57,453 nt of DNA. Source: Candidatus Woesearchaeota archaeon (GTDB lineage: Archaea > Nanobdellota > Nanobdellia > SCGC-AAA011-G17 > JAGVZF01). A model generated the notes under the pieces. That model did no database searches, was not told the origin of the DNA, and saw only the letters and a list, made by a program, of their open reading frames with translations. This document shows, in pieces, positions 2,659 through 53,873 of this stretch. Made by a program: the position numbers and the translations under genes. The DNA lies in contig CAZJUI010000005.1 in the NCBI GenBank assembly GCA_964549185.1, forward strand, positions 1 to 57,453. Reading direction: 5' to 3'. Numbering within the stretch: the first letter of the stretch is position 1; the number at the start of each line of letters is the position of its first letter.

Positions 2659-2670
2659 TTTGAAAAAAAA

Positions 2671-3466: not shown

Positions 3467-3598
3467 ATGAAAACTATAACAATCCCTAAGGAAGAATACA
3501 ATAAATTGAAGAAATTTGAAAAGGTAGATCAAGAATTATTGCAAGATATAGCTAGAGGAATAAAAGATATATTAAAAGGTAAGGTTAAGGAAGTTTAA
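3467..3598 (+). CDS. small antitoxin-like ORF (43 aa), not in the ORF track
   Basis: My own translation gives MKTITIPKEEYNKLKKFEKVDQELLQDIARGIKDILKGKVKEV*. The MKTITIpkeeY N-terminus resembles small archaeal antitoxins. Its stop overlaps the stop of the convergent RelE-like gene by 4 nt. Confidence 0.35.
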   Translation: MKTITIPKEEYNKLKKFEKVDQELLQDIARGIKDILKGKVKEV

Positions 3599-3909: not shown

Positions 3910-3953
3910 TTTATTCTTTTCTAATATATATTTTATTAAAGCTTTTTGTTTTG

Positions 3954-4724
3954 CTATTTTTTAACTAAGGTTAGATTTGGTTGACCTATAATCTTCTCGG
4001 TTCCGTCTTTTAATCTGACAAAATAATTGTTATTTTTAATAAATCCATATTCTATATTTTTTATGCCCCCTACTCTAGAAATTTCTTCTTCACTAAATAT
4101 ATCTTGTAAAAACCCTGGAGCCATTTGAACTTTCATCTTTCCGCCTTTTTTTCTAAAGTCTTCTAATTCTTTCATTTCTTTTTCATGTTTTTTAAATTCT
4201 CTTAAAACATAAGATTTCTTTGGGGCATTTTTTATATGAATATTTGAAAATAAAATGTTATGAAAATTTCTGCAATAACTTGAAACAGATTCTTTAACTA
4301 TTTCTAATGATAGCTTCTCAGCTGGATGGAAAATGGATATATAACTTGGCTTGAATCCTTGAGCATTTTTTGGTGCTTTAAATTTTACTTCATAGAAATT
4401 AGGATCATTTGGATCATCGTAATTGTAGCTGAAAAAAATATCTTTTGCATTTAGGAGTTCTTCAAGGTTTTTATTACGATGTAAGCATTCTTCTCTTAAT
4501 TGCTCTTTCCCATAATCAGAATCATGGCTCATCTCTTCCAACACTTTAATATACCCTTTTGTTATTATTGTTGTAGAATGTTCATGATATTTTTCATTTC
4601 TATCTTTAAATCTTATTGAAAGATCATCCCAATAAAATGATTCTAGATTATATTCACTCCACCAAAAACTTAAAGAATCTATTTTAATAGAAACATTGGT
4701 AGGCTTGATAATTTTATCTGGCAT
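3954..4724 (-). CDS. hypothetical protein, tightly linked downstream of cca
   Basis: The track ORF starts at TTG 4739, overlapping the cca stop. The first ATG is at 4724 (MPDKIIKP), 11 nt after the cca stop. No motif recognised. Confidence 0.55.
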   Translation of the reverse strand: MPDKIIKPTNVSIKIDSLSFWWSEYNLESFYWDDLSIRFKDRNEKYHEHSTTIITKGYIKVLEEMSHDSDYGKEQLREECLHRNKNLEELLNAKDIFFSYNYDDPNDPNFYEVKFKAPKNAQGFKPSYISIFHPAEKLSLEIVKESVSSYCRNFHNILFSNIHIKNAPKKSYVLREFKKHEKEMKELEDFRKKGGKMKVQMAPGFLQDIFSEEEISRVGGIKNIEYGFIKNNNYFVRLKDGTEKIIGQPNLTLVKK

Positions 4725-9427: not shown

Positions 9428-10339
9428 TTATATTTTCTTAATTTTTGTTATAAAAAATCCTTCTGTATCATTATCTTGCGGCCAAATTCTTAGACAATCT
9501 TTTACTTCTTCTCTATATTTTTGATTATCAAACTCTAAGATTGGCTTAGATCTTTTCAAATCTAGATTAATTTTCTCAATTTTAGCATTATCAAATGTAT
9601 CAAGTAAATAAGAAACAATAGCTTCATTTTCTTCTGGCTCAACTGAACATGTAGAATAAACTAAAGTTCCATTTTCTTTTAAGTTTTCAAATGCAATTTT
9701 TATTAATTGACGCTGAGTTCCAGCTAATCTTCTCACCATGTTTGCATTCCAAGAAAGTAGTGTTTTCAGACTTTTTCGAATAGCTCCTGTTCCTGAACAA
9801 GGAGCATCTAATAATATCTTATCGAAATTGAAATCTTTGAAAAATCTTCCTTGCTGCAAGGTTATTATTGCATTTAAAACACCACATCTTTGTAAGTTAA
9901 TCCCGAGAGCTTTTATTCTTTTATAATCATAATCATTAGCTATTATTAATCCATTGTTATCCATTATGGAAGCAAGATGAGTTGTTTTTGATCCTGGAGC
10001 AGCTGCCATATCTAAGACTAAATCATCTTTATTTGGATTAATAACAATGGAAGGTATCATTGAAGCTGCTTCTTGAATGTAAACATAACCAAGAGCATGT
10101 TCTATTAAATTTCCTATATCTCTCCTTTCTCCTGTGATAAAAAAACCTTCCTTACACCAAGGAACTTGAGTTAGTTTCCAATCTTTTAATCTGTCTTTAA
10201 GTTCTTTAATTGTTATTTTTAAAGTATTAACTCTTAATGAACGTCTTAAATAAGTAGTTGAATATTTTTTAAACTCATCAATATCTGTTAATTTAGAATA
10301 ACGTTCAATAAACTTATCTTTAAAGACTATGTTTTCCAT
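9428..10339 (-). CDS. NOL1/NOP2/Sun (RsmB/Trm4-type) RNA cytosine-C5 methyltransferase
   Basis: SAM motif DMAAAPGSKTT, and the catalytic motifs DAPCSGTG and YSTCS. Confidence 0.9.
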   Translation of the reverse strand: MENIVFKDKFIERYSKLTDIDEFKKYSTTYLRRSLRVNTLKITIKELKDRLKDWKLTQVPWCKEGFFITGERRDIGNLIEHALGYVYIQEAASMIPSIVINPNKDDLVLDMAAAPGSKTTHLASIMDNNGLIIANDYDYKRIKALGINLQRCGVLNAIITLQQGRFFKDFNFDKILLDAPCSGTGAIRKSLKTLLSWNANMVRRLAGTQRQLIKIAFENLKENGTLVYSTCSVEPEENEAIVSYLLDTFDNAKIEKINLDLKRSKPILEFDNQKYREEVKDCLRIWPQDNDTEGFFITKIKKI

Positions 10340-14348: not shown

Positions 14349-15441
14349 AGACTAGTTTTTGCTTTATTAAAGTTAAAAATGTTTCTTTTAGCTCTTCAGA
14401 GAGTAATTCTAGAACTGGATTGAAAAATCCTGTAATAATAGCATGTTTTGCTTCTTCTTTTGACAAGCCACGGGACATTAGATAGAATAATTGATCTTCA
14501 TCTATTTGACCAACTGAAGCTGAGTGGCCTGCTTGAACATCATTTGCTTCTATTTCTAAGCCTGGAATAGCATCTGCTTTTGCTCCCGGATTTAAGATTA
14601 AAGCATGATCTGATAAGAAAGATTTTGTTTTTTGTCCCTCTTTTGATATTCTTATCATTCCATTAGATAAACATCTTGAACTATCTTTTAATGCCCCTTT
14701 TATCAAGACTTCGGAAGTTGTAAAAGGTTTATTATGAATAACATTTGTATTAAGTTCAAAGTTTTGACTAGACGAACCAAAAAATAATTCAATGTTTTTA
14801 AGTTGAGAATTTTCTCCATTAAGATAGAAATCTGTAAATGTTTTATTATAATTACTACCCAAACAAATAAATGAATGATGTAAATTTGCATTTTTATCTA
14901 AAACAAAAGATTTTGCTGAAACATTTTCCATATTATTTCCAAATTTTTGTAATTCTATGAAATTAAGATTTGAATTTTCTTTCTGAAAAACTTCTAAAGA
15001 TGAGTTTCTTTTTGCTAATGAATCTGAATCAAGATTATGGATTATTGTTAATGAGCTGTTTTCTTCTAAAACAATTATATTTTTCTCTACAATGTTATCT
15101 GCCTTTGTGCTTAATATCAATGGAATTTCTAATTTAACATTTTTTGGCACTTTGATAAATAATCCTGAATTAAAAAATGCATTATTAATTAAGAGATCTC
15201 TTTCTGTATGGGGGAAAATTGCTTTGTCTTGAAAATATTTTTGAAAGAATTCTTGATTTTTATATATAGCTTCATTAATATCTAGAATTTCCAAAGTACC
15301 ATTATCTTCATACAATATTTTAGATGTTGAGATTAAAGGATTTATTTCTGTTTCTGGAATTATTGTTTTAGCTAGATTAAAGCTTGCTTCACGAAAATCT
15401 TTAAGCCAATTTGGTTCATTGTCCAAAAATACTGTTTTCAT
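14332..15441 (-). CDS. sufD: Fe-S cluster assembly protein SufD
   Basis: SufB/D beta-helix C-terminal signature ...[29 protein letters not shown], paralogous to the SufB C-terminus. Position in the suf operon supports the call. Confidence 0.85.
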   Translation of the reverse strand: MKTVFLDNEPNWLKDFREASFNLAKTIIPETEINPLISTSKILYEDNGTLEILDINEAIYKNQEFFQKYFQDKAIFPHTERDLLINNAFFNSGLFIKVPKNVKLEIPLILSTKADNIVEKNIIVLEENSSLTIIHNLDSDSLAKRNSSLEVFQKENSNLNFIELQKFGNNMENVSAKSFVLDKNANLHHSFICLGSNYNKTFTDFYLNGENSQLKNIELFFGSSSQNFELNTNVIHNKPFTTSEVLIKGALKDSSRCLSNGMIRISKEGQKTKSFLSDHALILNPGAKADAIPGLEIEANDVQAGHSASVGQIDEDQLFYLMSRGLSKEEAKHAIITGFFNPVLELLSEELKETFLTLIKQKLVYEKTN

Positions 15442-18400
15442 TAGCCAACACTTCCTTCCATCTCCATTTTTATTAGCTTATTAAGTTCGATTGCATATTC
15501 CATTGGAAGTTCTTTTGTAAATTCTGCCATGAAACCTAGAACTATCATTGACATTGCTTCTGATTCTGATAATCCGCGAGACATTAGATAAAATAATTGA
15601 TCTTCTCCTATTTTTCCAACATAAGCTTCATGAGATATTGTAACATCTTCTTCATCAATATTCATTGTTGGATAGGTATCTGATCTTGATTCTTCATTTA
15701 ACATTAAAGCATCGCATTTTACAGATGATGTTGAATTGTGGGCTCCTTTTGCTATTCTTACTAAGCCACGATAAGAAGAATGTCCATTTCCATTGCTAAT
15801 AGATTTTGAGATTATTCTTGAGGTTGTGTTTGGAGCAAGATGAATTGCTTTTCCACCTGCATCTTGATGTTGATTATTTGAAGCAAATGCTACTGATAAA
15901 ATATCTGCTTTTGCATTTTTACCTTTTAGATAAACAGAAGGATATTTCATTGTTAATTTACTATTATGGACAATTACATTATTCGCAATAAAATTATGCG
16001 ATCCTTCTATTTCTAAATCATATGTTGGTTTCTCCCCGATAGGAATAATCTTTGTTATTTTTTGTAATGCAAGATGTTTTGGTAAAGATATTCTCCTTGT
16101 TTTACTTAACCAGTATTTTGAACGTTGGTAAGCATCTTTTGGAATTTTATTTTTATTTTCTCTGGAAAAAAATTCCCATAGCTTTGAAAGTCCACTAATC
16201 AACATGATATAACTTGTATACTCTTTTTCAGGATAGTCGTACTTACTATTAGAGGATATCTTTTTTATTATAATTTCTTTTTTTATTCTATTCACTTCGA
16301 TTCCACAAGTTATTGCTAAATTCTTTAAATCCTCCAATAGTTCTTTATTGCAAGTTTTTAATCTTGCTCCATTTTTTCTAATAGTCCCATCAGCTTCGAT
16401 GTATCCTGTTAGAAACGCTTTCTTTTGACTTACGGGAAGATTGAATACCCATTCAGGCACTCTTTTTGTGTGTGCATTTCCTTCTAATCCATTCATTTTT
16501 AAGAATTCGGCAACAATAAGGCTATTGTATGATATAACTATCTTATCTTTTCTTTCTGTATAATTTTTTAAAGCAAATATTTTATCCATAACCTTTACAA
16601 GTTTTTCTCTTGCAGAATCAGATGATGGAATGGAAAATATAATTTTTCCAAATCGATTATTCCCAGTTTTTTTATTTTTGGCTATATCAATATTTCCATC
16701 GCCAATTATTAATCCCATTAGCCATAAAACATCATCATTTGTTTTCTCAGGTAGTTTTACTTTGTTGTATTTATAAGAAGTATTCATCTCATAAACTGCA
16801 CCATATTGATTCCTACCTATAATCTTTCTTTCTGTTGTTGGTTTTTTTAATTCATAGTCTGTTCCTAAATTTGGCATTTCTCTAGGAACTACTAGATAAG
16901 ATTCCTCAGATAAATACTCCAAAGGTAACCATGTGAATATATAGCGTCCAAGTTTTTTTGGTCTTTCTTTATCATAATGAATTGTTAAAAATGGATGGGT
17001 TTTTGTTGCAATTATCTCTCTTTTTCCATTTTCCAAAATAATTTTATAAGCAGGTTTTATTCCTGAAAACTTTGTGGCGACAACTTTTTTTGCTTCTAAT
17101 TCTTTTGTCTTTTCATTGAAAGTAATCACTTTCTGTCCTTCTTTAATAGCTTGAATTTCTTTAAATCCGGGATTTGTAGAAATTTTTGTTCCTTCGGCAA
17201 GGCATCCTAAGTTGCCATCTATCCATTCAACAGTTGCATTTTCATAAGCGTAAGCTCTTTTTGTAACCAAATTATAAACATTGTTTGACCAATTTTGTAT
17301 TGTTGTGTATCTAACTTTTGCATCTTTCAATGCAATAACTTCGACGACAGCTGCATGCAAAGAATCTGTAGAATAAACTGGGGCTGTACAATTGTGGACT
17401 AAAATATTATGGCTAACATATGATTCATCTTCTTCTACGCTGAAATTATAAACATCTAGGTTTTTTACTTTCTCTTTTTTGATGCTTTTAATTGGAACAA
17501 ATGCATAATCTCCGATAATTTTACCATAGGAAACAAGCTCGAGTTGTGTAACCATATTTCCATCTTTTGATTCTGCTAAAGATATATTATTATCAACTAT
17601 ATTTCCAAATGATTCAAGATAAGATCCTCCAACATAGATAACATATAAATCTGTTCTTGGTTTTTGTCTTTTCCAAACATTAATTGATGCTATAATATTT
17701 AATCTTAGTAAAATTTCTTTCATTCCCTCTGCTAATTCATTAGAAACAGTACAAATTCTAAATGCTCGTTTATTCCCCCAGGAATATTTCTTTGATGTTA
17801 CGTTTCCATCTCCCCTAAACCATCCTTTAATTAATTCTGATTGTTTTTCTAGAGATTCAAAAAGCATCCATTTTGGGAGATGTTTATTATGCGCACCAGC
17901 ACCAAACTGTTGCTTAAATATTCTTGCTGCAGTTGTTGAACATAATATTACGCTTATTCCATTTTTGTATTCTGCTTGTTCTATTGCTTCTTTTCCAAAT
18001 ATTTTTAGTAAAAGTTTTTTTACATCATCTATGTATTCTCTTTCTTTTTTATTAAATGTAAATGTTAAATAATGTTCATCAATAATTGAACCTTCAGAAA
18101 GATAATAACCAGCTAATCTGAAAAGGTCTTTATCTGTTCTTAATGGAACTTCTACCTTCTCTTTTTTACCAAACTTAATTGTGAATAATCTTTCATCCTT
18201 ACTAATCACTGTTCTGTCTATAGGAATGACAACATAATCTCCTTTAGAAAGTTTACTTGCTGGCATCCATTCTATCTTCCAATCTTGGTTTTTGTATTCT
18301 ATTTTTTCTTTTTTTGAAGTTAGAATTGGATGTTCGGAAGTTATTTTTATTTTATGCCTTGAATCTGTATAATATTCAATTGTGTAAAGATCTCCATCAT

Positions 18401-19244
18401 ATTTGCGAACTTGGGTGTTGTAAACTTTTTTGTAATCTAATTTATGTGTTAAAACAAGATCATTAACTTTAACAGCTTCTATTTTTTTAGTTCCATCTAA
18501 AGTTTTTATTGTGGTTCCTTTCACAAAACAACCTTCAATGTAATGAACGTCTGCACCTTCATCTGCTATAATTAATGTTCTTTCAAATTGTCCAACATTT
18601 TTAGCATTTATTCTGAAATAAGCTTGTAGTGGGACTGAAACTTTAACTCCCTTCGGAACATAAACAAATGATCCTCCGGACCATGTTGCTGTATTTAATG
18701 CTGCAAATTTATTATCTCCTGCTGGAATTACTGTTCCAAAATATTTTTTAACAATATCTGGATGTTCTTTCAATGCAGTATCCATATCTGTAAAGATAAC
18801 TCCTTGTGCTGCTAAATCTTCTCTTAGATTATGGTAAATAGATTCAGATTCAAATTGAGCTCCTAAACCACCTAGAAATTTCTTTTCAGCTTCTGGAACT
18901 CCTAATTTATCAAATGTTTTTTTAATATATTCAGGAACATCATCCCATGAATCTGTTTTAATATCAGAAGGTCTAAAATAATAGGTTATGTTATCAAAAT
19001 CGATATTGCCTAAATTACCTCCCCAAATTGGCATAGGTCTTGATTCAAATATTTTTAAAGCTTTTAATCTATTATCTAACATCCATTGAGGTTCATTTTT
19101 AATTTTTGATATTTCTTCAACTATCTCTTTAGATAAACCTTTTTTAGATTTATGAACGAAAGTTTCAGGAACGCTAAATCCATATTTCTCTAGATAATCT
19201 GTGTTAATTGCATTTATTGCACTAACATCTTTTTTGATTTCCAT
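15441..19244 (-). CDS. sufB: Fe-S cluster assembly protein SufB precursor containing two inteins (extein 473 aa)
   Basis: 1267-aa ORF. Removing residues 239-618 and 681-1094 leaves a normal-length SufB with joined motifs HYIEG-CTAPVYS and [14 protein letters not shown], and C-terminal ...[23 protein letters not shown]. Confidence 0.95.
15963..17204 (-). mobile_element. SufB intein 2 (414 aa, LAGLIDADG homing endonuclease domain)
   Basis: Starts at Cys ([11 protein letters not shown]) and ends ..NNVIVHN, followed by +1 Ser (SKLT). LAGLIDADG motifs [10 protein letters not shown] and [11 protein letters not shown]. 1242 nt, in frame. Confidence 0.9.
17391..18530 (-). mobile_element. SufB intein 1 (380 aa, LAGLIDADG homing endonuclease domain)
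   Basis: Starts at Cys ([13 protein letters not shown]) and ends ..NILVHN, followed by +1 Cys (CTAP). LAGLIDADG motifs [10 protein letters not shown] and [11 protein letters not shown]. Boundaries were mapped codon by codon and are in frame (1140 nt). Confidence 0.9.
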
Positions 19245-34979: not shown

Positions 34980-35087
34980 TGGGCCCAAGGAGATTTGAAC
35001 TCCCGACCCCCAGCTCACTTAGGGTCCCAGATGTTGCCTGGAATGTCATATAAGACTGGTGCTCTAACCAGGCTGAGCTATGGGCCC
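34980..35087 (-). tRNA. tRNA-Ile (UAU) with a 33-nt canonical-position BHB intron
   Basis: Reverse complement GGGCCCATAGCTCAGCCTGGTTAGAGCACCAGT-CTTATA[intron]A-GCTGGGGGTCGGGAGTTCAAATCTCCTTGGGCCCA. The mature anticodon loop is CUUAUAA, so the anticodon is UAU. The GGGCCC acceptor is typical of archaeal tRNA-Ile. Confidence 0.85.
35016..35048 (-). other. tRNA-Ile intron (33 nt, between positions 37/38)
   Basis: The central 4-bp helix CUUA (nt 32-35) pairs with UAAG near the intron 3' end and is flanked by 3-nt bulges UAU and UGA. Cutting after the second bulge nucleotide on each strand gives exactly the 37/38 junction. Confidence 0.8.
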
Positions 35088-42134: not shown

Positions 42135-42344
42135 ATGAAAACTAAGAAAAAAGATCCTTTTGAAGAAATAATTGAAATATTGCAAGATTATGATAAAGGA
42201 TTTCCAGCGAGAACACATCATGATTTTGAAATTTGTATGTGTAGTGATGATAAACATCATGGAAAAGAGATTACTATAAAAGAGATTGAATTTAAAGGTA
42301 ATAAAGTTGTTAAAAAAAGATTAAGGAAGATAAAAAAGAATTAA
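42135..42344 (+). CDS. hypothetical small protein (69 aa)
   Basis: ATG 3 nt after the previous stop. No motif recognised. Confidence 0.4.
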   Translation: MKTKKKDPFEEIIEILQDYDKGFPARTHHDFEICMCSDDKHHGKEITIKEIEFKGNKVVKKRLRKIKKN

Positions 42345-42757
42345 ATATCAATAACAATTCTAGCTTTCCATTTATTTTTAATCTTTTTGATTTCAAATTG
42401 ATGTAAAGTTATAGCTTTAACATCATTTCTTAATTCTTGAGTATCATAATTAATTTTATCACAATAAAGAGTTGCTTCTAGCTTAAAATCTTTTATCTTT
42501 ACTTTAGCTTTTTGAAAAACAAGCTGTTTTGTATCTTTTATGTAAACAATTTCAGAAAGGAAGTTGTAAAGTAAATCGTCTATTTTATTTGCTTTTAGTT
42601 TAATTGTTTTCTTAATCTTCCCTTTTAAATCTTTTAAGTTAACCATGCAGTCAAATAATGCAAGTGCTGAATTTTCAAATAACTCATTTAGATTATTACC
42701 ATAAGCATCAAATGCTATATCTGCTATGGCTACATCTTCTAAAAATCTGTATTTCAT
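42341..42757 (-). CDS. archease (RtcB activator)
   Basis: 138 aa. MKYRFLEDVAIADIAFDAYGNNLNELFENSALAL...AITLHQFEIKK...ARIVIDI is the archease N-terminal D/ADI signature with a matching C-terminal strand. Confidence 0.85.
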   Translation of the reverse strand: MKYRFLEDVAIADIAFDAYGNNLNELFENSALALFDCMVNLKDLKGKIKKTIKLKANKIDDLLYNFLSEIVYIKDTKQLVFQKAKVKIKDFKLEATLYCDKINYDTQELRNDVKAITLHQFEIKKIKNKWKARIVIDI

Positions 42758-42790
42758 AAAAAAAGAAAAAGAATTAAAGTATAAAAATCT

Positions 42791-42946
42791 TTACTTACCA
42801 AAAGCTTCCCATAAACCTACAACAGCTACCAATATACCAATTAACCATACTCCCCATGTCATTGTAGCATGTAGTGTTGTGAATCCCCAAATTATTGCTA
42901 AGATACCTAAAATAACTTGTATCCACCCAGCTGTTTTATTTGCCAT
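42791..42946 (-). CDS. small two-TM membrane protein (51 aa), not in the ORF track
   Basis: My own translation gives MANKTAGWIQVILGILAIIWGFTTLHATMTWGVWLIGILVAVVGLWEAFGK*. It is preceded by AAAGGAGGGATTTAAAAAATG, a clear Shine-Dalgarno sequence. The plus-strand track ORF 42726-42953 is its antisense shadow. Confidence 0.55.
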   Translation of the reverse strand: MANKTAGWIQVILGILAIIWGFTTLHATMTWGVWLIGILVAVVGLWEAFGK

Positions 42947-43044
42947 TTTTTAAATCCCTCCTTTTGGATTATGTTAAATTTCATAAGAAAAGCGACTATT
43001 TAAAGTTTATACTGTTTTGAGAAAGTGGTGAAAATATATGTGAT

Positions 43045-43575
43045 TTAAAGATTTTTTAAAATAAATTCAACTCTGGCATTTATTGGAATTACTGGAATTA
43101 TGAGCGGATTATATCCTAATTTTTGGTAATCTGAAATTAACGTATCATGAATTTTTCTTCTTTTTGATTCGTCCTCAACTCTTCTATGATCTCTTGCATA
43201 ATTAGGTAATAAATCTAAGATAAATATTCCTTTATATCTCCTTACTAAAGATTCTTCTTCAGCCTTTATTATAGACTCTCCATTAATTCTAAAATAAGTT
43301 ATACTGTCTGGCATCCCCCTATCCCAAAATATTAATTGACGTGGATCTGCTTTTCTTTCGGCTATTATTTTCATTTCTAAAACAATATTTTGGAAAGCAA
43401 TTTCATCAGCTCTAATCTCTTCTAAAGTTTTGCCTTCACTAAATCCTTGGTTTATCAAAACACTAGCAGCTTCAGGCCTTATAGAAAATCCTTTTAGTGC
43501 TAAAGCTTCAATTACTGGTGTTTTTCCACAATTCGGGCCACCTGTTATTACATACCAATCTGTTTCTTTTGGCAT
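43045..43575 (-). CDS. P-loop NTPase (AAA_28/NadR-kinase-like predicted ATPase)
   Basis: Walker A ITGGPNCGKT. 176 aa, a small kinase-like size. It lies between archease and rtcB. Confidence 0.7.
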   Translation of the reverse strand: MPKETDWYVITGGPNCGKTPVIEALALKGFSIRPEAASVLINQGFSEGKTLEEIRADEIAFQNIVLEMKIIAERKADPRQLIFWDRGMPDSITYFRINGESIIKAEEESLVRRYKGIFILDLLPNYARDHRRVEDESKRRKIHDTLISDYQKLGYNPLIIPVIPINARVEFILKNL

Positions 43576-43627
43576 AGAATATATAGAGTATAAATAAATT
43601 TATAAAATTAACTTTATGCTATAATAA

Positions 43628-45149
43628 TTAATTTTTTATATTTCCAATCGGAATTAATTTTGCAACGGGTTTTGAAATGCCTGCTTTATGAATTGCATCA
43701 ATCACATCATTAATCTCTTTGTAGGCTATTCCAGCTTCTTCTGCTAATCCTGCCATTGATCCTGTTTTAACATATATTCCACGTTTTTCCATATCTTGCT
43801 GCAATTTATCTCCCCTAATTTCGTGTTTAGCTTTTGTTCTTGACATTGTTCTTCCACTGCCGTGACACGTCGAGCTGAAGGTTTCTTCATCTGCTTTTGT
43901 TGTTCCAGATAATAAATAACTTCCAGTTTCCATGCTTCCTCCAATAATAACAGGAGAGCCAATATCTCTATAAATTTTAGAAACTTCAGGATTATTTGGA
44001 CCTTGACATAAGGTGGCTCCTTTTCTATGGACAATTAATTTTTTCTTTTTTCCATCAATTTTAAATTCTTGTAGTCTAGCTAGATTATGAGCAACATCGT
44101 AAATACAATGCATTTCCATGTCTTCTGCTTTTTTCTTGAAAATTTGTTCAAAAGATTCTCGAATTCTATGTAAAATAACTTGTCTATTCGAGAAAGCCAT
44201 GTTAGCTGCACATGCCATTGCTTTATAATAATCTTGACCTTCTTTACTTTGGAATGGGGCACATGCTAATTCTCTATCATTTACTTTTATATTATATTTT
44301 TCCATTGCTGTATTAAATGTTTGTAGATAATTCGTAGCTACCTCATGCCCAAATCCGCGACTGCCACAATGAAACATGATAACAATCTGATCAGCAAATA
44401 TTCCAAATTTCTTTGCTGTTTTTTCATCTACTATATTTTCAGGCTTAACATGTTGTATTTCAAGATAATGATTTCCTGAACCAAGAGTTCCGAGTTGATT
44501 AATTCCACGATATCTTGCTTTTTGTGAAATTTTAGATGAATCTGCCCATTCTATTTTACCATTGCTTTCTATTCTTTCTAGGTCCTCTTTCCAACCATAA
44601 CCATTATCTATACACCATTTTACTCCTTCTTCCATAAGTTCATCAAATTGTTGATTATTAAGCTTAACAAAGCCTTTACTTCCGACTCCAGATGGAACTA
44701 TTTTATACAAAGAATCTACTAATTCTCTTATCCTAGGTTGAACTTCTTTTATGGTTAAGTTAGTTGTAACAAGCCTCATGCCACAATTGATCATTCGTCG
44801 CAGTTTTTGATTCTTGCGAAATCGAATCCAATGCCGCCGGGGCTTATTACTCCAGTTTCAGCATCCATTGCAGCCACACCGCCTATCGGAAATCCATAAC
44901 CCTTCCATTGTAACAAGATATTTGTTCTTAGTTACATCAATGGCCGTCAGGCATGCATAGAGCATACCTTTGGATTCCAGGTAGGCAAGCTACATTGGTT
45001 ACTTGATCAAACACTCCAGGATCCATTGCATCCAATAATTTTTTAGTTGCAATAATCCTTGCTGGTACTAACATTCCTTCTTTAAAGCTAGTTGGAATTT
45101 CCCAAACTGCTTCTTCGATTTGTTTTATGTCTTTAGGTGCATTTGTCAT
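43628..45149 (-). CDS. rtcB: RNA 3'-phosphate/tRNA-splicing ligase RtcB, interrupted by two BHB mini-introns (3 exons)
   Basis: Exons 45149-44938, 44902-44821 and 44791-43628 (212+82+1164 = 1458 nt, 485 aa plus stop). The joined product reads ..[48 protein letters not shown].., colinear with RtcB as I remember it from Pyrococcus horikoshii ([37 protein letters not shown]). Downstream motifs [20 protein letters not shown] and STCHGSGR are present. Confidence 0.9.
44792..44820 (-). other. rtcB intron 2 (29 nt, BHB-type)
   Basis: RNA: (CAUUGGA)-UUCG-[AUU]-UCGCA-(12-nt loop AGAAUCAAAAAC)-UGCGA-CGAA-[UGA]-(UCAAUUG). This gives a 4-bp central helix, two 3-nt bulges, a 5-bp inner hairpin and an imperfect outer helix (5 of 7 pairs). 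Cutting after bulge nucleotide 2 joins GAU|AUC, which encodes Asp-Ile. Confidence 0.85.
44903..44937 (-). other. rtcB intron 1 (35 nt, BHB/hBH-type)
   Basis: RNA: CCAU-[UGA]-UGUAAC-(16-nt loop UAAGAACAAAUAUCUU)-GUUACA-AUGG-[AAG]. This gives a 4-bp central helix flanked by two 3-nt bulges and an intron-internal 6-bp hairpin. Cutting after bulge nucleotide 2 on both strands joins CAU UG|G GGU, which encodes His-Trp-Gly. Confidence 0.8.
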
Positions 45150-45171: not shown

Positions 45172-45179
45172 TTTTTAAA
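45172..45179 (-). promoter_or_regulatory. TATA box (TTTAAAAA) of rtcB
   Basis: Octamer 23 nt upstream of ATG 45149. It overlaps the stop codon of the LAGLIDADG gene. Confidence 0.4.
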
Positions 45180-45819
45180 TTTTTGCTATTTGATAAGAAT
45201 TTAGAGCTTCTTTAAGTTTAATTTTTTTATTTGGATGTAAAAATCCTATGTTATTATTAAATCTTTTAAGGTCATCTAATCCACAGATATTTAATCTATA
45301 AATTATCCTATCTTTTCTAATCCTTATCTTTAATTTAGATTCTATTTTAAATCTAGATAATGCTTTTTGCACTTGTTTTAGCCCCTTAAGATTTACACAT
45401 TCTACCCTTATAGACCTACTTTTAGCTGGTTGCAGTTCTACCCAAGATTCACAATCAAAAAATGCTCTTAACCATAATCTTAGATTTTCTTTTGAGATTT
45501 GAGGCATATTCCATTCATAGGAATAATAAGAATATTTTTTGGTTAATACATAAAAAATCTCCTTTGAACCTATGTAACATCTTTCTTTTATTACAAGTAT
45601 TGGTGTTTTTTTGAAGTATTTTTTAAATCTTCTTTGGAAATCCTTTAATAGTATTAAATTTGTATTTCTAAAACCAATTTTGTAATATTTATGTTTTTGG
45701 TATACTGGATTTCTTATCACATAACCATCAGCACAAAGATAAGCATGCACTGCAGATAAGTCACTATTAAATTTCATTTTAAGGCATAAAATTCGATTAT
45801 TTATAAACCCTGTGCGCAT
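45175..45819 (-). CDS. free-standing double-motif LAGLIDADG homing endonuclease-like protein
   Basis: 214 aa with two LAGLIDADG-type motifs, VHAYLCADGYV and LWLRAFFDCESWV, about 100 aa apart. There are no intein splicing blocks and no flanking extein. The start may be the internal MKFNS. Confidence 0.75.
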   Translation of the reverse strand: MRTGFINNRILCLKMKFNSDLSAVHAYLCADGYVIRNPVYQKHKYYKIGFRNTNLILLKDFQRRFKKYFKKTPILVIKERCYIGSKEIFYVLTKKYSYYSYEWNMPQISKENLRLWLRAFFDCESWVELQPAKSRSIRVECVNLKGLKQVQKALSRFKIESKLKIRIRKDRIIYRLNICGLDDLKRFNNNIGFLHPNKKIKLKEALNSYQIAKI

Positions 45820-49172: not shown

Positions 49173-49413
49173 TTCTTAATTCTTCCTGAGTTAGTTTTTC
49201 TATATTGGCTAGAATATTTATAACATAATTTTTTAATTGACTAATTTGAGATTCTATAGAACTAAGCTCATCTTTCTTTTTTTTAAGAATTATTTTATCT
49301 TTTTCACGCGCAACATCTTCTGTTAATAATCTTCTTTTCTCTAATAAAATGTCATATTTTCCAGCGATTTCATTAAGGCTTTCTGCATTATGATAGATTG
49401 CTTCTATTGTCAT
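49156..49413 (-). CDS. small coiled-coil protein (85 aa)
   Basis: Heptad-rich sequence. Overlaps both neighbouring genes within the pilus operon. Confidence 0.45.
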   Translation of the reverse strand: MTIEAIYHNAESLNEIAGKYDILLEKRRLLTEDVAREKDKIILKKKKDELSSIESQISQLKNYVINILANIEKLTQEELRNANQS

Positions 49414-52400
49414 ATTAATCCGAATTTAGCTAGAACAGCTTTTGGATCTTTATAGTATTCATTGATAACTTCTTTAACTTCTTTAAAATCAAATATTCCT
49501 TTTTTATACATAGCAATAAGCAAATTTGTTCTTTTATTGAATTCATCCATTATTTTTGTTATACTTAATCCATGATGTAATAATAATTTTTGAAATGCGT
49601 AGCTGTTTGATTTGAAGTAAAAAGTATCTTTTTGTGGATCCCAAATAAATGGTGTGTTAATATTTGCTGACCCCTTTTCTGTAACATTTATTATTTCTGA
49701 AACTTCTCGTATTCTTCTTACAGGTTTAGCCTGAAGTTTTGTTTGCGTCATTACACAGACTACATCTAAGATTTCTACAAGTGATGAAGAAAGATTAATT
49801 GGTGGAGTTTCTAATCTTTTTATCATAGTATCGACGGAGTTTGCATGCATTGTGCCAAGACTTGGATGACCAGAATTATGAAGTAAAATTCCTCCAAATC
49901 CTCCAATAAAATTCCTTGTTCTTGGTATAGCAATATCATACACTGGTTCTTTTTTATCCAGTTTTATTATTTCTATAGACCTTATGGTATCTATATATAA
50001 ATCTCCTAATAATCTGGGATTAATTGATTTTCCTACAAATTTATTATTTTTATTTTTAATTGAATTTGTATATCTCAAGAATTCATTTTTGTCTAAAGCA
50101 TTATAAAATAGTATTTCGTAATCTGTTATTTTTCTTCCCACTCGATTTCTAGATCTAATTGTAGCGACTATTCCGAATGTTAACAATAATTTTGATATAT
50201 CATCTGCGAATTTTTTTGATATTGTAAAATAACCAAAGTAATTTTCTGTAAAGCTCCCATCGCCATCATATAATGCAGATAAAAATTGTCCTATCTTTTC
50301 TTTTGATAATCCAAATATAAAATCAGGAATTTTTTTATCATGTTTTGCTCCGCAATAAATTCTTAAAAATTCATGAATCACTTTATGGTTGAATGATAAT
50401 TCTGTCGCTGTTCCAAACCCTTTTGTTATTCTTCCACGTTGGTTTTTTCCTGTAATCTTAAAAATACAATATCTCATATCTTGCAAAATACTTTTATCTT
50501 TGTTATATAAAGCAATTTTTTTACTTTTACTTCTCCCAAGACTTCCCCCAGATAGATAATATCCTAATAATCTTAAAAACTCATTTGTTAAGTAAAGTTT
50601 AGAAGGTAAACTTTCGCTATTTTTATCAAATTTTAATATTAAATTTTCTGAATCATAATTAATTTCAGCATCTTTCATTAATTTTATGAATTTTTCGACT
50701 TTTAAAGAAGATGGTTTTGCTCTTTTAAAATTAGAATAATAATCTGTTATAGATTCAATGCCACAAATTGCAGATGCTGGATAATATCCTAATTTAGTAA
50801 CTGCCTCCTTTACCAATTTAGGAGAATAAATTCTTGCATGGGGCAATAACTCTAATAAATTTATATACTCTAAATCTGCATAACCGCAAGGAATTTTAGA
50901 CGGAATTAGTATTTTCTCTCCAATTCTTAAACTTTCCATTGGGGCACTTATAACTTTATTTTCATACTTAAATACTGAATGATCTGGTGTTAATGTTATT
51001 TCTCTACCTGTTCTTGTTGTTATCTTATATAATATTTTTCTTGTTGGATGTTTTAATACTGCAGTTATTGGTAAAATTTCTACTTTCTTTGTATTAAGGT
51101 TATAAGTTGGAGCATAACAATCTTTAATATCATTTAAATCTTTAATCTTTATTTTTAATGATTTTCTATCTTTAATAATAAATATTTCTTCATCTCCTTG
51201 GATAGATCCCATGCCCTGAAATAAAACATACGCTTCTGCTCCTCTTACTTCTCCAACAATAACATAGTCTGGATTTTGTCTGAAACTTTCTTTTAATAAA
51301 TCAAATAAAGAAACTTCTCCATATTTCTGTCCAACTAGATTAGATAAACCAACTCCAGCTCTTGCAACCGATGGAAGCCAGTTTTCATGTTGAAGATTTA
51401 ATTCTCTAGTGTCTTCTATTGAAACTATTCTTGCCTGTGGTGGAATGAAAAATGTTAGGGCATTAAGAAATGTTGTTTTTCCTGAGCCTGTTCCCCCGAC
51501 TATCATAATGTTCATTTCATATTCAAGTAAAATCCAAAGATAAGCCAAGATTTGTGGAGAGCAAGTTCCAAGTTGCATTAATTTTGTAGGTGTCCAAGGT
51601 TTTTTTGTGAACTTCCTTATAGTAAAACTTGGTCCCCTAGAAGATATATCCTCGGTAAAGGTAGCATTTGCTCTACTATTATGACAAAATAAACCGCCAA
51701 ATCCTGCTATAAAATTTTCATTTTTTGGAACAGACACATCATAAACATAATTACCTGTTGGTTTAACTTTATTAATATTATTAACCCTTAAAAATATAAA
51801 ATCTGAATCTATTAATTTTTTTACAAAATCTAGTTCATAGATAACTTCTTGTCCTTCTTTAGTTAATAGATTCGTGCCTTTTATATTTTTTATTATTCTA
51901 CGCTTTGTCCATTCTAGTATGAATTTTCTAGATTTGACATTTTCGAGGTTATTAAAGTTTTTAAATCTGATTTCATTTAATATTTTTTTCAATCTTTCCC
52001 TTCTTAGTCTATTATTCTTTAATTTATGGTGTGTTTTATTTAGTGGATTAAATAATATTATAGGTACCATTGTATGGAAATCACTTAATTTTCTTCTATA
52101 ATAATTAGTATATATTTCATGACTTTCAATTTTTCTATTATCGAATTTTGCTATTCTGTCTCTTTCATAAAATGGGACAATCCTGTTTTTGAATAATGAA
52201 AGATATGAAATATCGGTTGCTAATTTTTTGCTTGCTGTGCTCCCAAAATCACTATTGTGCCAGGCCTTAATAAATTCTTCTTGAAGCTCTTTATTAACAT
52301 TAAAAACTATTTCAGGGACTTCTTTGGTTTTAGCACCTTTGCTTACCTTTAAAACATCTCTAAAAACTAAATAAATTAACAAACTAGTAATCCTTAATTT

Positions 52401-53873
52401 ATTTGCATTTTTTTCTTCAGGTTCTATATATATCTTATTGGAAAAGCATTTGATAAAATTATCATTAACTTCATTATGATATTCATGTTCATTTTTGTTA
52501 AAGCAGAAAGAAACTGAATATTGATGTTTCCTGTTAGATAACCAACCTTCCCCGATATAATATCCTAATAATCTCATTAGTTCTTTATTAGCTTTTAGAA
52601 ATGTTGGAATTTGTACACTAGATGTTGTAGCTATTTTACACTTTCTTAATTCTTCTTCAGTTAAAATATTATATAATCTTATTGGTAATATTCTCTTTCT
52701 TTTATGTTCATTATATGTTGGAATTACATTCTTATAATTATCTTTATAATATTTTTTTATCTCTTTATTTTTATCTTTAAAAATACGTAAAGGAATTTTA
52801 GTTAGTATAATCTTTTTATAATATTCACTTTCACTTAATTCTTTTGCTAAATTAAACTCATCAATAATATCATTTTCAGGTAATGTTAATGGAGCAATTA
52901 CATAATCTCCTATTTTTAAATTTGTTACTAACTCTGGTTTTATATTATCTTTTCTTAAAACAAATATGCTATGAACTCCAGTTAATCTTACATTTCTTGA
53001 AGCTTCTAACTGTAATTCATATAAATCTTCATTTGCTTTGTGTCTATAAACATAATCTATCTTTTTCCAATTTATTTTCATACTTTTATCAAAGGCTGGA
53101 ACTTCAATATTGCTAACATTTATTGGTTTATTGCTCTCATTATTCTTATAATATTTATCAATAAATTCTCCCATCTTTGAAATTTTTACTTTATTATTTT
53201 CTTTGTAAATGAATGGCTCATTGCAATCTACGCTTCCATCAGGCAAAGCTCCATCCAATAATGGGGTAGCATAAGAAATGTATTGACCACATTTTTGAGC
53301 AAGCTTTTCTACAAATGAAGTTAAAACTTGAACATCGTCATATTGAATGTTTGTTCTTAAATTTCTATATTTTCTATGAACAATGTAAATTGGAAAGTTT
53401 GTTCCATTACATTCTATATCTTCTATAAAATAATCATTAAGAAAAGGCTCTATTTTTCCGAAACCTGCAAAATCACGATAGATGAAATACATTATTTTAA
53501 GATATGACTCTTTTATTAATTGTATTCTTAATTCTTCTAATAAAACTTGAACATTTTTTTCAAGATACTTAATAACAGATTCTGGGTCTTTAACTGAAAT
53601 GAAACTTATGTTTATTAATTCTTTAATTCCATCTTCCAATAATCTTAAAATTCTAGCTTCTTCGGCTGTTAATCCTGGTTCTTCAACAAAATAAACTAGT
53701 TCTTTGTTATCAAAATCCCAAAAGATATGGGCATATGCGTAAGGAGGTATTAATGGATATTTTAGATTAACATTTTCATCTGGAACTTCTGGAAAAACAG
53801 GAATTTTTGGTTTTAGATCTATCTTGAAAATAGGCTCTTCTTTTAATTCGACATGTGCCTCTTTTTTTAACAT
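49410..53873 (-). CDS. type IV pilus/secretion ATPase (GspE/FlaI/TadA/VirB11 superfamily) precursor with two inteins (extein 524 aa)
   Basis: 1487-aa ORF. After removing residues 214-732 and 890-1333 the exteins read ..[32 protein letters not shown].., Walker A [10 protein letters not shown], Walker B/Asp box [33 protein letters not shown]. Confidence 0.93.
   Translation of the reverse strand: [1487 protein letters not shown]
49875..51206 (-). mobile_element. pilus-ATPase intein 2 (444 aa, Ser1, LAGLIDADG domain)
   Basis: Starts [12 protein letters not shown] and ends ..[13 protein letters not shown], followed by +1 Ser. LAGLIDADG motifs [10 protein letters not shown] and [11 protein letters not shown]. 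1332 nt, in frame. Restores FQGMG-SGH, which corresponds to the family motif FQAMxTGH. Confidence 0.85.
51678..53234 (-). mobile_element. pilus-ATPase intein 1 (519 aa, Ser1, LAGLIDADG domain)
   Basis: Starts [11 protein letters not shown] and ends ..[13 protein letters not shown], followed by +1 Ser. LAGLIDADG motifs [10 protein letters not shown] and [11 protein letters not shown]. 1557 nt, in frame. The Ser1 assignment restores the canonical PDGSR motif. Confidence 0.8.

What the first reader, a model, noticed from the sequence alone, without database searches (positions are those of the whole stretch)
42341..45149. Possible self-referential circuit: RtcB must ligate its own mRNA, with archease and a P-loop NTPase as neighbours
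If the two rtcB insertions are BHB introns, their exons end in 2',3'-cyclic phosphate and 5'-OH after EndA cleavage. The only known archaeal enzyme that joins such ends is RtcB itself, stimulated by archease.

In that case the ligase mRNA needs pre-existing ligase protein twice per transcript. This gives positive feedback and epigenetic-like inheritance of splicing capacity, and it links tRNA maturation capacity to RtcB synthesis.

The archease gene (42341-42757) lies about 900 bp downstream on the same strand. It is separated from rtcB by a small membrane ORF and an uncharacterised 176-aa P-loop NTPase (43045-43575), which could be a further cofactor or an RNA-end-modifying kinase.
Basis: inference. 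Interest (0 to 1): 0.7.

Follow-up and report, generated by a model that had tools for sequence, protein, structure and literature searches.

The report
Mini-introns inside an archaeal RNA-ligase gene
The gene for the RNA-joining enzyme RtcB of this tiny archaeon is broken by two very short tRNA-type introns, so the enzyme most likely has to repair its own messenger RNA; the introns look like by-products of selfish DNA-cutting elements rather than a designed control circuit.

Summary
rtcB (45149..43628, minus strand) is in three pieces, split by a 35-nt and a 29-nt insertion. Archease, a 51-aa membrane ORF and a 176-aa AAA_28 P-loop protein lie downstream.

Removing the two insertions gives a complete 485-aa RtcB with all catalytic residues. 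The closest relative (92% identical, same gene order) has exact 35- and 29-nt gaps at these sites.

Both insertions fold as bulge-helix-bulge (BHB) motifs whose predicted cleavage sites restore the reading frame. I found the same for further mini-introns in 17 other DPANN loci, at five positions in total. A tRNA-Ile gene in the window has a canonical BHB intron, so this organism needs the splicing pathway anyway.

Dependence of rtcB mRNA on RtcB is therefore a sound inference, but splicing was not observed and the rest of the genome is unseen.

The NTPase link is not supported: it neighbours rtcB only in the closest relative and looks like a nucleoside or nucleotide kinase. The archease link is the familiar one.

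Its family sits beside rtcB in 21 of 22 loci. In every such locus the PDGHWGYG coding site is split by an intron or has mutated. This suggests selfish-element dynamics, not an evolved feedback circuit.

The parts
44938..45149 (-). rtcB exon 1 (ATG at 45149; ends ...CAT TG, i.e. H70 plus the first two bases of the W71 codon)
   Evidence: ORF list; splice reconstruction; alignment with intron-less orthologues
44903..44937 (-). rtcB intron 1, 35 nt, relaxed BHB. Central helix CCAU/AUGG, 5' bulge UG|A, 6-bp inner helix UGUAAC/GUUACA. The 3' site AA|G lies in a 2x4 internal loop, not a clean 3-nt bulge. It splits the W71 codon TG|G and carries an in-frame TGA.
   Evidence: Exact 35-nt gap in L001/L003/L005; fold; BHB score in the top 0.04% of junction pairs
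44821..44902 (-). rtcB exon 2, 82 nt (last base of the W71 codon to D97: [27 protein letters not shown])
44792..44820 (-). rtcB intron 2, 29 nt, BHB. Central helix UUCG/CGAA, bulges AU|U and UG|A, 5-bp inner helix UCGCA/UGCGA. The outer helix is 2 bp in the strict register but long in the 211-nt fold. It lies between the D97 and I98 codons, two codons (6 nt) upstream of the catalytic Cys codon.
   Evidence: Exact 29-nt gap in orthologues; folds; BHB score in the top 0.02%
43628..44791 (-). rtcB exon 3 (INCGMRL... to the stop codon); holds the catalytic Cys, the metal-binding His residues and the guanylylated His
   Evidence: Pfam RtcB E=1.6e-142; alignment with PH1602; dN/dS 0.086 versus L001
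45175..45819 (-). Free-standing LAGLIDADG homing-endonuclease gene directly upstream of rtcB. The likely true start is the ATG at 45777 (MKFNSDL...), giving 200 aa. It is inserted between the promoter region and the rtcB start codon, and is absent from the 92% relative.
   Evidence: Pfam LAGLIDADG_3 E=7.8e-19; insertion shown by alignment with L001; family next to rtcB in 21 of 22 loci; catalytic D and E invariant
43045..43575 (-). AAA_28 P-loop kinase-like protein, 176 aa. A neighbour of rtcB, but no evidence links it functionally.
   Evidence: Pfam; AlphaFold model pLDDT 94 with thymidylate/deoxynucleoside kinase and NadR hits; neighbourhood not conserved
42791..42946 (-). 51-aa two-helix membrane protein, conserved but of unknown role
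   Evidence: 100% identical in L001 with 8 synonymous changes
42341..42757 (-). Archease, the known activator of RtcB
   Evidence: Pfam PF01951 E=1.8e-37; within 4 kb of rtcB in 51 of 80 loci
34980..35087 (-). tRNA-Ile(UAU) gene with a canonical 33-nt BHB intron (35016-35048) at position 37/38. It shows that this organism uses the EndA/RtcB pathway, and it is an in-genome positive control for the BHB rule.
   Evidence: Rfam tRNA 56.5 bits with a 34-nt insertion; BHB geometry central 4/4, outer helix 5 bp; missed by ARAGORN

Best explanation
**What it is.** rtcB of this low-GC DPANN (Woesearchaeota-like) archaeon carries two ORF-less BHB mini-introns of 35 and 29 nt. They sit inside the coding sequence of two active-site motifs, PDGH-W-GYG and GFD-INCG.

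**How it most likely works** (all steps inferred):
1. The pre-mRNA folds into two BHB-like motifs.
2. The tRNA-splicing endonuclease EndA cuts after the second base of each bulge. On the minus strand the cuts fall at 44938|44937, 44903|44902, 44821|44820 and 44792|44791.
3. This leaves 2',3'-cyclic phosphate and 5'-OH ends.
4. Pre-existing RtcB, activated by archease, joins exon 1 to exon 2 to exon 3.
5. The joined mRNA encodes the full 485-aa enzyme.

RtcB synthesis therefore depends on RtcB. This is a real positive loop, but probably an incidental one.

**Why the introns are there.**
- They are evolutionarily recent: the 92%-identical, syntenic relative lacks them.
- They sit at sites that inteins also invade in related RtcB genes.
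- They are accompanied by a dedicated free-standing LAGLIDADG endonuclease gene just upstream.
- The most likely reason is that they split, and so protect, the DNA target of that endonuclease or of the intein-borne ones, and spread together with it. This is the archaeal BHB counterpart of 'collaborative homing'.

**The neighbours.** Archease is the normal RtcB partner. The AAA_28 protein and the 51-aa membrane protein are neighbours with no demonstrated link.
For: **Shown**
- The insertions are exact 35- and 29-nt gaps relative to three uninterrupted orthologues.
- The spliced product is a complete RtcB. Residues matching P. horikoshii D95, C98, H203, H234, H329 and H404 are all conserved.
- dN/dS against L001 is 0.076 at dS 0.73, and is low in all three exons.
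- BHB geometry was scored for the 16 insertions of 13 loci. In each, the one frame-restoring junction that recreates the consensus residue has that geometry, ranking in the top 0.01-1.6% of junction pairs. Six further introns in L101, L103/L110, L105, L112 and L113 were placed at sites 1a or 1c by eye; a 4/4 central helix was checked by hand in three of them (L103, L105, L113).
- The cleavage rule was validated on tRNA introns from L093 and from the window itself.
- Five different insertion positions exist, including split codons TG|G, T|AC and A|TC. Each time the intron strand complements a different exon 4-mer.
- No second rtcB lies in the window.
- LAGLIDADG gene: it is inserted relative to L001. 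Its family sits next to rtcB in 21 of 22 loci, and its catalytic D and E are invariant.
- Of 18 distinct endonuclease-bearing loci, 12 have a site-1 intron and 6 have a mutated motif. None keeps PDGHWGYG intact, although 90 of the 120 closest RtcB proteins carry the exact 14-residue motif CMPDGHWGYGFPIG.
- L024 keeps an orphan copy of exon 1 whose homology stops at the intron site.
- Inteins sit at GYGF|C and DIN|C in L028, L043 and L104.

**Established knowledge**
- BHB-spliced archaeal mRNAs are known for cbf5 and HVO_1309 (PMC10485636).
- Collaborative homing is described in PMC6083498.
Against: - There is no RNA evidence. A search of JGI metagenome contigs for the spliced junction found nothing.
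- EndA is not in the window: a crude motif scan and Pfam scans of several small ORFs were negative. The rest of the genome is unseen, so a second, intact rtcB or another ligase cannot be excluded.
- Intron 1 lacks a proper outer helix, so its 3' site lies in a 2x4 loop. It would need an EndA with relaxed specificity.
- In the 211-nt fold the central helix of intron 1 is not in the minimum-energy structure.
- The endonuclease-intron link is correlative and not corrected for phylogeny. The rtcB-based locus scan was biased, because one of its search patterns was CMPDGHWG.
- The endonuclease's cleavage site is unknown. It could be its own intergenic insertion site.
Confidence: 0.72

Rival explanations
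1. An evolved autoregulatory circuit. The introns would be kept because making RtcB synthesis depend on RtcB and archease activity gives useful positive feedback, or couples ligase supply to tRNA-splicing load. The NTPase would be a further cofactor.
For: The dependence follows logically once the introns are accepted. Archease is nearby. Introns in rtcB recur in many lineages.
Against: - The introns are absent from the 92% relative, which has the same gene order.
- Their positions and sequences differ between lineages: five sites, which looks like repeated invasion rather than one conserved regulatory element.
- They coincide with intein sites and with a dedicated homing-endonuclease gene.
- The NTPase neighbourhood is not conserved, and its fold is that of a nucleoside or nucleotide kinase.
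- Positive feedback on an essential, always-present enzyme offers no obvious control benefit (inference).
Confidence: 0.1
2. A dead gene. The two insertions inactivated this rtcB copy, and a functional ligase is encoded elsewhere in the genome.
For: Both insertions shift the frame and carry stop codons. Only 57 kb of the genome is visible.
Against: - dN/dS is 0.076 in all exons and all catalytic residues are intact.
- Both insertions have BHB geometry that restores the frame exactly.
- Equivalent stop-carrying insertions occur in 17 other loci from independent assemblies, always at BHB-compatible positions.
- The gene keeps its place in the conserved locus beside archease.
Confidence: 0.07
3. 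Translational bypassing. Ribosomes would hop over the 35- and 29-nt gaps, as in phage T4 gene 60 or the yeast mitochondrial 'byps', so no RNA cutting or ligation is needed.
For: The gaps are short and have a hairpin. In intron 1 a stop codon (TGA) directly follows the last sense codon.
Against: - There are no matching take-off and landing codons.
- Hopping cannot rebuild codons that the insertions split: TG|G here, and T|AC and A|TC in relatives.
- In-frame landing after insertion 1 would add a Lys that no homologue has.
- After insertion 2 no landing site gives D-I-N-C.
Confidence: 0.03
4. A sequencing or assembly artefact, or a split protein made of three separate polypeptides.
For: The source is a metagenome-type assembly. 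The last three bases of intron 2 form an ATG in frame with exon 3.
Against: - Independent assemblies from many studies show the same kind of insertion.
- The middle piece has no ribosome-binding site and starts with TTG.
- The breaks fall inside active-site motifs, which argues against a split protein.
Confidence: 0.02

Closest known systems
BHB intron in cbf5 pre-mRNA of Crenarchaeota (also HVO_1309 in Haloferax volcanii)
   Same: A protein-coding archaeal gene is interrupted by a short intron with a relaxed BHB motif. EndA removes it and the exons are ligated (PMC10485636, PMC2738675).
   Different: - Here the host gene is the ligase itself.
- There are two introns per gene.
- The introns are smaller (12-35 nt across the loci studied).
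- They occur at five positions in many DPANN lineages.
- They are linked to a dedicated free-standing LAGLIDADG gene.
- Splicing has not been shown experimentally.
Unconventional XBP1/HAC1 mRNA splicing
   Same: A small intron in an mRNA is removed by a protein endonuclease, leaving 2',3'-cyclic phosphate and 5'-OH ends. In animals the exons are joined by RtcB with archease.
   Different: In that system the endonuclease is IRE1, the substrate is a transcription-factor mRNA, and splicing is a regulated stress switch. Here the substrate is the ligase's own mRNA, the endonuclease would be EndA, and nothing indicates regulation.
Collaborative homing (cyanophage S-PM2 F-CphI next to intron-containing psbA; T4 mobE/I-TevIII)
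   Same: A free-standing homing-endonuclease gene lies next to a gene whose ORF-less intron interrupts the conserved target. The intron protects the host allele and both can spread together (PMC6083498, PMC2790892).
   Different: - Those are phage systems with self-splicing group I introns and Endo VII/HNH enzymes.
- Here the host is a cellular archaeon, the introns are protein-spliced BHB introns, and the enzyme is a LAGLIDADG protein.
- Cleavage specificity is untested.
RtcB inteins
   Same: Selfish LAGLIDADG-bearing elements inserted in the same two active-site motifs of RtcB. RtcB is a frequent intein host (PMC4760082). Inteins sit at GYGF|C (L028) and DIN|C (L043, L104) in relatives.
   Different: Inteins are removed from the protein. 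The mini-introns carry no ORF, hold stop codons or shift the frame, and must be removed from the RNA.
rtcB-archease gene pair
   Same: Archease lies on the same strand within about 1 kb of rtcB, as in 51 of 80 loci examined.
   Different: Nothing unusual, apart from two unrelated genes inserted between them in this lineage.

Membership tests
Archaeal BHB (bulge-helix-bulge) intron | Two 3-nt bulges on opposite strands separated by a 4-bp helix | tested here: met
   Intron 2 meets it: UUCG/CGAA with bulges AUU and UGA. Intron 1 meets it in relaxed form: CCAU/AUGG is 4/4 and the 5' bulge is UGA, but the 3' site lies in a 2x4 internal loop.
Archaeal BHB (bulge-helix-bulge) intron | Flanking helices h (outer) and h' (inner) | tested here: inconclusive
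   The inner helices are 6 and 5 bp. The outer helix is 0 bp (intron 1) and 2 bp (intron 2) in the strict register, but it is long for intron 2 in the 211-nt fold (z = -3.0). This corresponds to the relaxed HBh' class.
Archaeal BHB (bulge-helix-bulge) intron | Cleavage after the second bulge base at both sites gives a functional product | tested here: met
   The predicted cuts remove exactly the 35 and 29 nt missing from orthologues and restore HWGYG and GFDINCG. The rule was validated on tRNA introns.
Archaeal BHB (bulge-helix-bulge) intron | Cut by EndA and ligated by RtcB; a spliced RNA exists | not testable with these tools
   No RNA data. The spliced junction is absent from metagenome contigs. 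EndA was not found in the window.
Archaeal BHB (bulge-helix-bulge) intron | The host organism uses BHB splicing | tested here: met
   tRNA-Ile(UAU) at 34980-35087 has a canonical 33-nt BHB intron at position 37/38.
RtcB 3'-phosphate/5'-OH RNA ligase | Full-length RtcB fold with metal-binding Asp/Cys/His residues and the guanylylated His | tested here: met
   After splicing the protein is 485 aa, matches PH1602 at E=3e-173 over residues 8-484, and has DINC, GNH, H..GSRG, AHN and CHG all conserved. Pfam E=1.6e-142.
Archease | Full-length PF01951 domain | tested here: met
   E=1.8e-37, residues 3-138 against profile positions 1-136 of 136. The NCBIfam PRK00407 score is 119 bits, just under its cut-off of 126.
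LAGLIDADG homing endonuclease (free-standing, monomeric two-motif type) | Two LAGLIDADG motifs, each with a catalytic acidic residue | tested here: met
   YLCADGY and FFDCES. The D and E are invariant in the 17 aligned full-length sequences; L109, a C-terminal fragment, covers motif 2 only. Pfam LAGLIDADG_3 E=7.8e-19. It matches the intein endonuclease regions of RFC, IF2 and DnaB models.
LAGLIDADG homing endonuclease (free-standing, monomeric two-motif type) | Site-specific DNA cleavage and homing | not testable with these tools
   Only indirect evidence: patchy presence (absent in L001), an orphan exon 1 in L024 ending at the intron site, and the target motif never intact when the gene is present.
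Collaborative homing | A free-standing endonuclease gene adjacent to a gene with an ORF-less intron | tested here: met
   The window plus 11 other distinct loci.
Collaborative homing | The endonuclease cuts the intron-less allele at the intron insertion site, and the intron blocks cutting | not testable with these tools
   Needs an enzyme assay.
RNA-end-modifying kinase (proposed role of the AAA_28 protein) | Conserved association with rtcB/archease, or a polynucleotide-kinase-like fold | tested here: not met
   0 of 80 other rtcB loci have it. Its homologues neighbour beta-CASP RNases or Dus, never rtcB. The best fold matches are thymidylate and deoxynucleoside kinases and NadR, TM 0.6-0.7.

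The most novel reading that the evidence does not exclude
A widespread DPANN family of free-standing LAGLIDADG endonucleases (at least 397 proteins) is dedicated to rtcB and targets the DNA that encodes the PDGHWGYG active-site motif.

Tiny ORF-less BHB introns would act as shields. They split the target of this enzyme at site 1, and of the RtcB intein endonucleases at site 2, and they are carried along by gene conversion.

This would be the first case of collaborative homing in Archaea and with protein-spliced introns. It would also give a concrete mechanism for how BHB introns enter protein-coding genes. As a side effect, it leaves the cell's only 3'-phosphate RNA ligase dependent on itself for expression.
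Probability: 0.45. Interest if true: 0.85.

Novelty: new variant of a known kind. Interest (0 to 1): 0.7.

Why it matters
A 2023 review counts only two archaeal mRNAs spliced by the tRNA endonuclease, cbf5 and HVO_1309 (PMC10485636). My full-text searches found no report of introns in rtcB.

- **Scale.** Recurrent mini-introns occur in rtcB in 18 DPANN loci, at five positions. BHB splicing of mRNAs may therefore be far more common in uncultivated archaea than is known.
- **Annotation.** Gene callers will mis-annotate such genes as fragments or pseudogenes.
- **The self-reference.** The ligase gene needing its own product is a neat case of self-reference in the RNA-repair machinery.
- **Origin of BHB introns.** The tight link with a dedicated homing endonuclease makes a long-standing question directly testable: how do BHB introns, which have no known mobility of their own, get into new sites? 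A simple cleavage assay would answer it.

Tried and rejected
- **Window-wide BHB scan.** I searched for BHB motifs that would fuse adjacent ORFs. There were 244 hits, almost all at ordinary gene junctions in AT-rich DNA, and the true rtcB introns failed the ORF-length filter. I dropped it, so I cannot say whether other genes in the window have mini-introns.
- **EndA search.** A regex for an EndA-like motif in all six frames and Pfam scans of several small unknown ORFs found no EndA. This is uninformative for a 57-kb window.
- **Spliced junction.** An exact search in JGI metagenome contigs gave 0 hits.
- **Extra intron copies.** Neither intron has another copy in the window at up to 3 mismatches.
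- **Viral carriers.** No LAGLIDADG homologue was found in viral contigs.
- **AAA_28 function.** There was no PDB sequence hit and no NCBIfam hit, and only 12 homologues in the large protein search. Context and fold did not link it to RtcB.
- **Promoters and terminators.** The bacterial-type scan is not informative for an archaeon. By eye, AT-rich TATA-like boxes precede each gene, so the four genes need not form one operon.
- **Exon-wise dS.** Differences were too small to show a gene-conversion tract.
- **Rejected readings.** Ribosomal bypassing, pseudogene, split protein and assembly error; see the rival explanations.


Full report
**1. What is in the sequence**

On the minus strand, 45149-42341 holds four genes in this order:
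- rtcB, in three ORF pieces (44937-45149, 44791-44916 and 43628-44794);
- a 176-aa AAA_28 P-loop protein (43045-43575);
- a 51-aa two-helix membrane ORF (42791-42946);
- archease (42341-42757).

The three rtcB pieces match consecutive parts of the Pfam RtcB model. The first break follows ...CMPDGH. The second falls inside GGIGFD|INCG.

The window has about 28% G+C and carries archaeal pilus genes. The closest database relatives are Woesearchaeota and Nanoarchaeota (DPANN) metagenome-assembled genomes.

**2. The interruptions are precise insertions**

- The closest relative (L001, JGI 3300002502) has an RtcB 92% identical. It shares the gene order pilus genes, rtcB, AAA_28, 51-aa ORF, archease, but its rtcB is uninterrupted.
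- A DNA alignment with L001 and two 83-84% relatives shows exact gaps of 35 nt (window 44903-44937) and 29 nt (44792-44820).
- Deleting these gives a 485-aa protein that aligns from residue 8 to 484 with P. horikoshii RtcB (E=3e-173). The metal-binding Asp and Cys of DINC, the His ligands and the guanylylated His of CHG are all conserved.
- dN/dS against L001 is 0.076 at dS 0.73, and is low in each exon, so the gene has been under strong purifying selection.
- No other rtcB-like sequence is in the window.

**3. They have BHB geometry and the geometry predicts the junctions**

A canonical BHB has a 4-bp helix flanked on opposite strands by two 3-nt bulges, each cut after its second base. I verified this rule on two kinds of control:
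- tRNA introns from related DPANN loci (L093 tRNA-Lys and tRNA-His);
- a tRNA-Ile(UAU) gene in the window itself (34980-35087, with a 33-nt intron at 37/38, central helix CUUA/UAAG and bulges UA|U and UG|A). Rfam detected this gene and ARAGORN missed it.

The two rtcB introns compare as follows:

| Feature | Intron 1 | Intron 2 |
|---|---|---|
| Central helix | CCAU/AUGG | UUCG/CGAA |
| 5' bulge | UG\|A | AU\|U |
| 3' site | AA\|G in a 2x4 internal loop | bulge UG\|A |
| Inner helix | 6 bp | 5 bp |
| Class | relaxed (HBh'-like) | canonical |

In both, the rule removes exactly the inserted bases. Among all junction pairs within the region, the true ones rank in the top 0.04% and 0.02% for BHB score.

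In a 211-nt fold, intron 2 sits at the tip of a long exon-exon helix (z = -3.0). Intron 1 keeps its inner hairpin but not its central helix in the minimum-energy structure.

**4. The same thing recurs in other genomes**

A scan of one genome per species with the spliced RtcB, plus the scans and look-ups with the LAGLIDADG protein, gave 17 further distinct loci with short insertions that carry stops or shift the frame in the same 80-nt stretch of rtcB (L101's is in frame and stop-free). They fall at five positions:

| Site | Position | Loci |
|---|---|---|
| 1a | CAT\|TGG | L024, L025, L056, L086, L087, L101, L112 |
| 1b | TG\|G | window |
| 1c | T\|AC or T\|AT in the Tyr73 codon | L022, L023, L027, L034, L040, L088, L103/L110, L105, L113 |
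| 2a | A\|TC in the Ile95 codon, 12-13 nt | L034, L040 |
| 2b | GAT\|AT | window, L041 |

- One further locus (the P0200 locus) has rtcB called in two pieces (77 and 408 aa), but no DNA was available to place the intron.
- In every scored case, the single frame-restoring junction that recreates the consensus residue is the one with BHB geometry. It has 3-4 of 4 central pairs directly followed by a 4-10 bp inner helix.
- The exon strand of the central helix differs from site to site, and the intron strand complements it each time.
- Related site-1c introns show G-U to G-C changes in the inner helix.
- Split codons rule out ribosomal hopping.
- Recurrence in independent assemblies rules out artefact and makes a pseudogene unlikely.

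**5.

Accepting the introns, established biochemistry applies. EndA products have 2',3'-cyclic phosphate and 5'-OH ends, and RtcB with archease is the archaeal ligase for such ends. So each rtcB mRNA would need two RtcB-catalysed ligations.

EndA is not in the window and the rest of the genome is not available.

The loop is conceptually similar to spliceosomal protein genes that contain spliceosomal introns. Cells inherit the protein, so there is no paradox. I see no evidence that the loop is used for regulation.

RtcB is in any case needed here for tRNA-Ile(UAU). The rtcB mRNA itself has 16 AUA codons.

**6. The neighbours**

- **Archease.** It lies within 4 kb of rtcB in 51 of 80 loci, including bacterial ones. 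This is the well-known pairing.
- **AAA_28 protein.** It neighbours rtcB only in the window and in L001/L002 (0 of 80 other loci). It has few homologues (12 in the large protein search). Those with context sit next to beta-CASP ribonucleases (twice) or a Dus tRNA-dihydrouridine synthase, never next to rtcB or archease. This is a faint RNA-metabolism theme from three contexts only.
  - Its AlphaFold model (pLDDT 94) best matches thymidylate and deoxynucleoside kinases and the NadR ribosylnicotinamide kinase domain (TM 0.6-0.7). No polynucleotide kinase is in the top 50.
  - It evolves faster than its neighbours (dN/dS 0.28).
  - The proposed cofactor role is not supported.
- **51-aa membrane protein.** It is strongly conserved (0 non-synonymous against 8 synonymous changes), but only in this lineage.

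**7.

Directly upstream of rtcB lies a LAGLIDADG_3 ORF (45175-45819; the likely start is at 45777). It is inserted between the promoter region and the rtcB start codon. L001 has only a 39-nt spacer there.

- **Family size and position.** The family is large: 397 proteins at E<=1e-3. In 22 loci recovered by three independent routes it lies beside rtcB in 21. In 20 of these it is directly upstream on the same strand, and in L108 it is divergently oriented. The remaining contig, L109, is too short to tell.
- **Likely activity.** Both catalytic acidic residues are invariant in all sequences that cover them. The domain resembles intein endonuclease domains.
- **State of the target motif.** Of 18 distinct endonuclease-bearing loci, 12 have a site-1 intron. 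The other 6 have a mutated motif: SDIHVGYG, ADMHVGYG, SDGHAGYG, PDMHVGYG, ADVHIGYG and PDLHTGYG. None has an intact PDGHWGYG coding sequence, although 90 of the 120 closest RtcB proteins carry the exact motif CMPDGHWGYGFPIG.
- **Statistics.** Within the rtcB-based scan, both endonuclease-bearing loci have site-1 introns, against 6 of 78 others (Fisher p=0.009). Over all loci p=8e-6.
  - These tests ignore phylogeny.
  - The rtcB-based scan used CMPDGHWG as one search pattern. That inflates motif conservation among endonuclease-free loci and under-counts site 1a and 1b introns.
- **A repair footprint.** L024 keeps an orphan copy of rtcB exon 1 about 2.5 kb upstream. Its homology to the main copy stops at CATTGGGG, which is the intron site. 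After it come two unrelated ORFs, the endonuclease gene and a complete intron-bearing rtcB. This looks like the footprint of a double-strand break repaired with a donor cassette.
- **Inteins at the same motifs.** Inteins occupy GYGF|C (L028) and DIN|C (L043, L104). The DIN|C site is 6 nt from site 2b, and the L028 site is about 7 nt from site 1c.
- **Other homing elements nearby.** The window also carries two inteins in SufB and two in a type IV secretion ATPase, whose L001 orthologue has none.

**8. Best reading**

The two insertions are genuine BHB mini-introns, so RtcB most likely ligates its own mRNA.

The introns are best explained as partners of, or shields against, homing endonucleases that target the most conserved rtcB sequences. 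This is an archaeal, protein-spliced analogue of collaborative homing (PMC6083498, PMC2790892). They are less well explained as an evolved feedback device.

The endonuclease target, the splicing itself and the absence of a back-up ligase all remain to be shown.

**9. Novelty**

BHB-spliced mRNAs are known for cbf5 and HVO_1309 (PMC10485636, PMC2738675). Searches of the paper library found no report of introns in rtcB, or of an rtcB-linked LAGLIDADG family.

I class this as a new variant of a known kind. Interest is 0.7: high for the intron and endonuclease biology, lower for the 'circuit' framing.

Noticed in passing
window 34980-35087 (-), intron 35016-35048: tRNA-Ile(UAU) gene with a canonical 33-nt BHB intron at position 37/38. 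Rfam found it and ARAGORN missed it. In a 28% G+C genome, AUA decoding would depend on splicing of this tRNA.
   Followed up: yes
window 15441-19244 (-) and 49410-53873 (-): SufB (1267 aa) and a type II/IV secretion ATPase (1487 aa) each carry two inteins with LAGLIDADG domains. The ATPase orthologue in the 92% relative L001 is 524 aa with no intein. This genome is unusually loaded with homing elements.
   Followed up: partly
L024 1257-1490 versus 3980-4210: An orphan duplicate of rtcB exon 1 ends exactly at the intron site (…CATTGGGG) and is fused to the start of a lipoprotein-like ORF. About 2.5 kb downstream lie the LAGLIDADG gene and a complete intron-bearing rtcB. It looks like a scar of break repair.
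   Followed up: partly
L028 about 2545-4000; L043 167-1809; L104 from 2066: Full inteins with LAGLIDADG domains in RtcB at GYGF|C and DIN|C, which are the same two motifs the mini-introns occupy.
   Followed up: partly
window 42791-42946 (-): A 51-aa two-helix membrane ORF between the AAA_28 gene and archease. It is 100% identical in protein to L001 despite 8 synonymous differences, so it is a real gene under strong constraint, of unknown function.
   Followed up: partly
L096 5001-7024; L098 2062-4088; L099 395-2017: Homologues of the AAA_28 protein sit next to beta-CASP/RMMBL ribonucleases (twice) and a Dus tRNA-dihydrouridine synthase. This is a faint RNA-metabolism theme unrelated to rtcB.
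   Followed up: no
window 44792-44794 (-): The last three bases of intron 2 are ATG, in frame with exon 3. This is why ORF finders report a 388-aa 'RtcB' starting MINCG. No ribosome-binding site precedes it.
   Followed up: no
window 44765-44850 (-): Exon sequences on both sides of intron 2 can form a long helix (GUAAUAAGCCCCGGCGGCAUUGG with UCAAUUGUGGCAUGAGGCUUGUUAC) in the 211-nt fold (z = -3.0). It could serve as an extended outer helix. I did not check whether intron-less relatives have it.
   Followed up: no
L024 3153-4031; L027 815-1675; most database homologues: Most members of the LAGLIDADG family are about 275-292 aa, with a C-terminal extension of about 75 aa that overlaps the rtcB start. 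The window's copy (200-214 aa) and some others of about 198 aa lack it.
   Followed up: no
window 763-2658 (-), 4736-5962 (-), 9428-10339 (-): Other RNA-processing genes lie in the window: an aCPSF1/FttA-type beta-CASP ribonuclease, the CCA-adding enzyme and an RsmB/F-type RNA methyltransferase.
   Followed up: no
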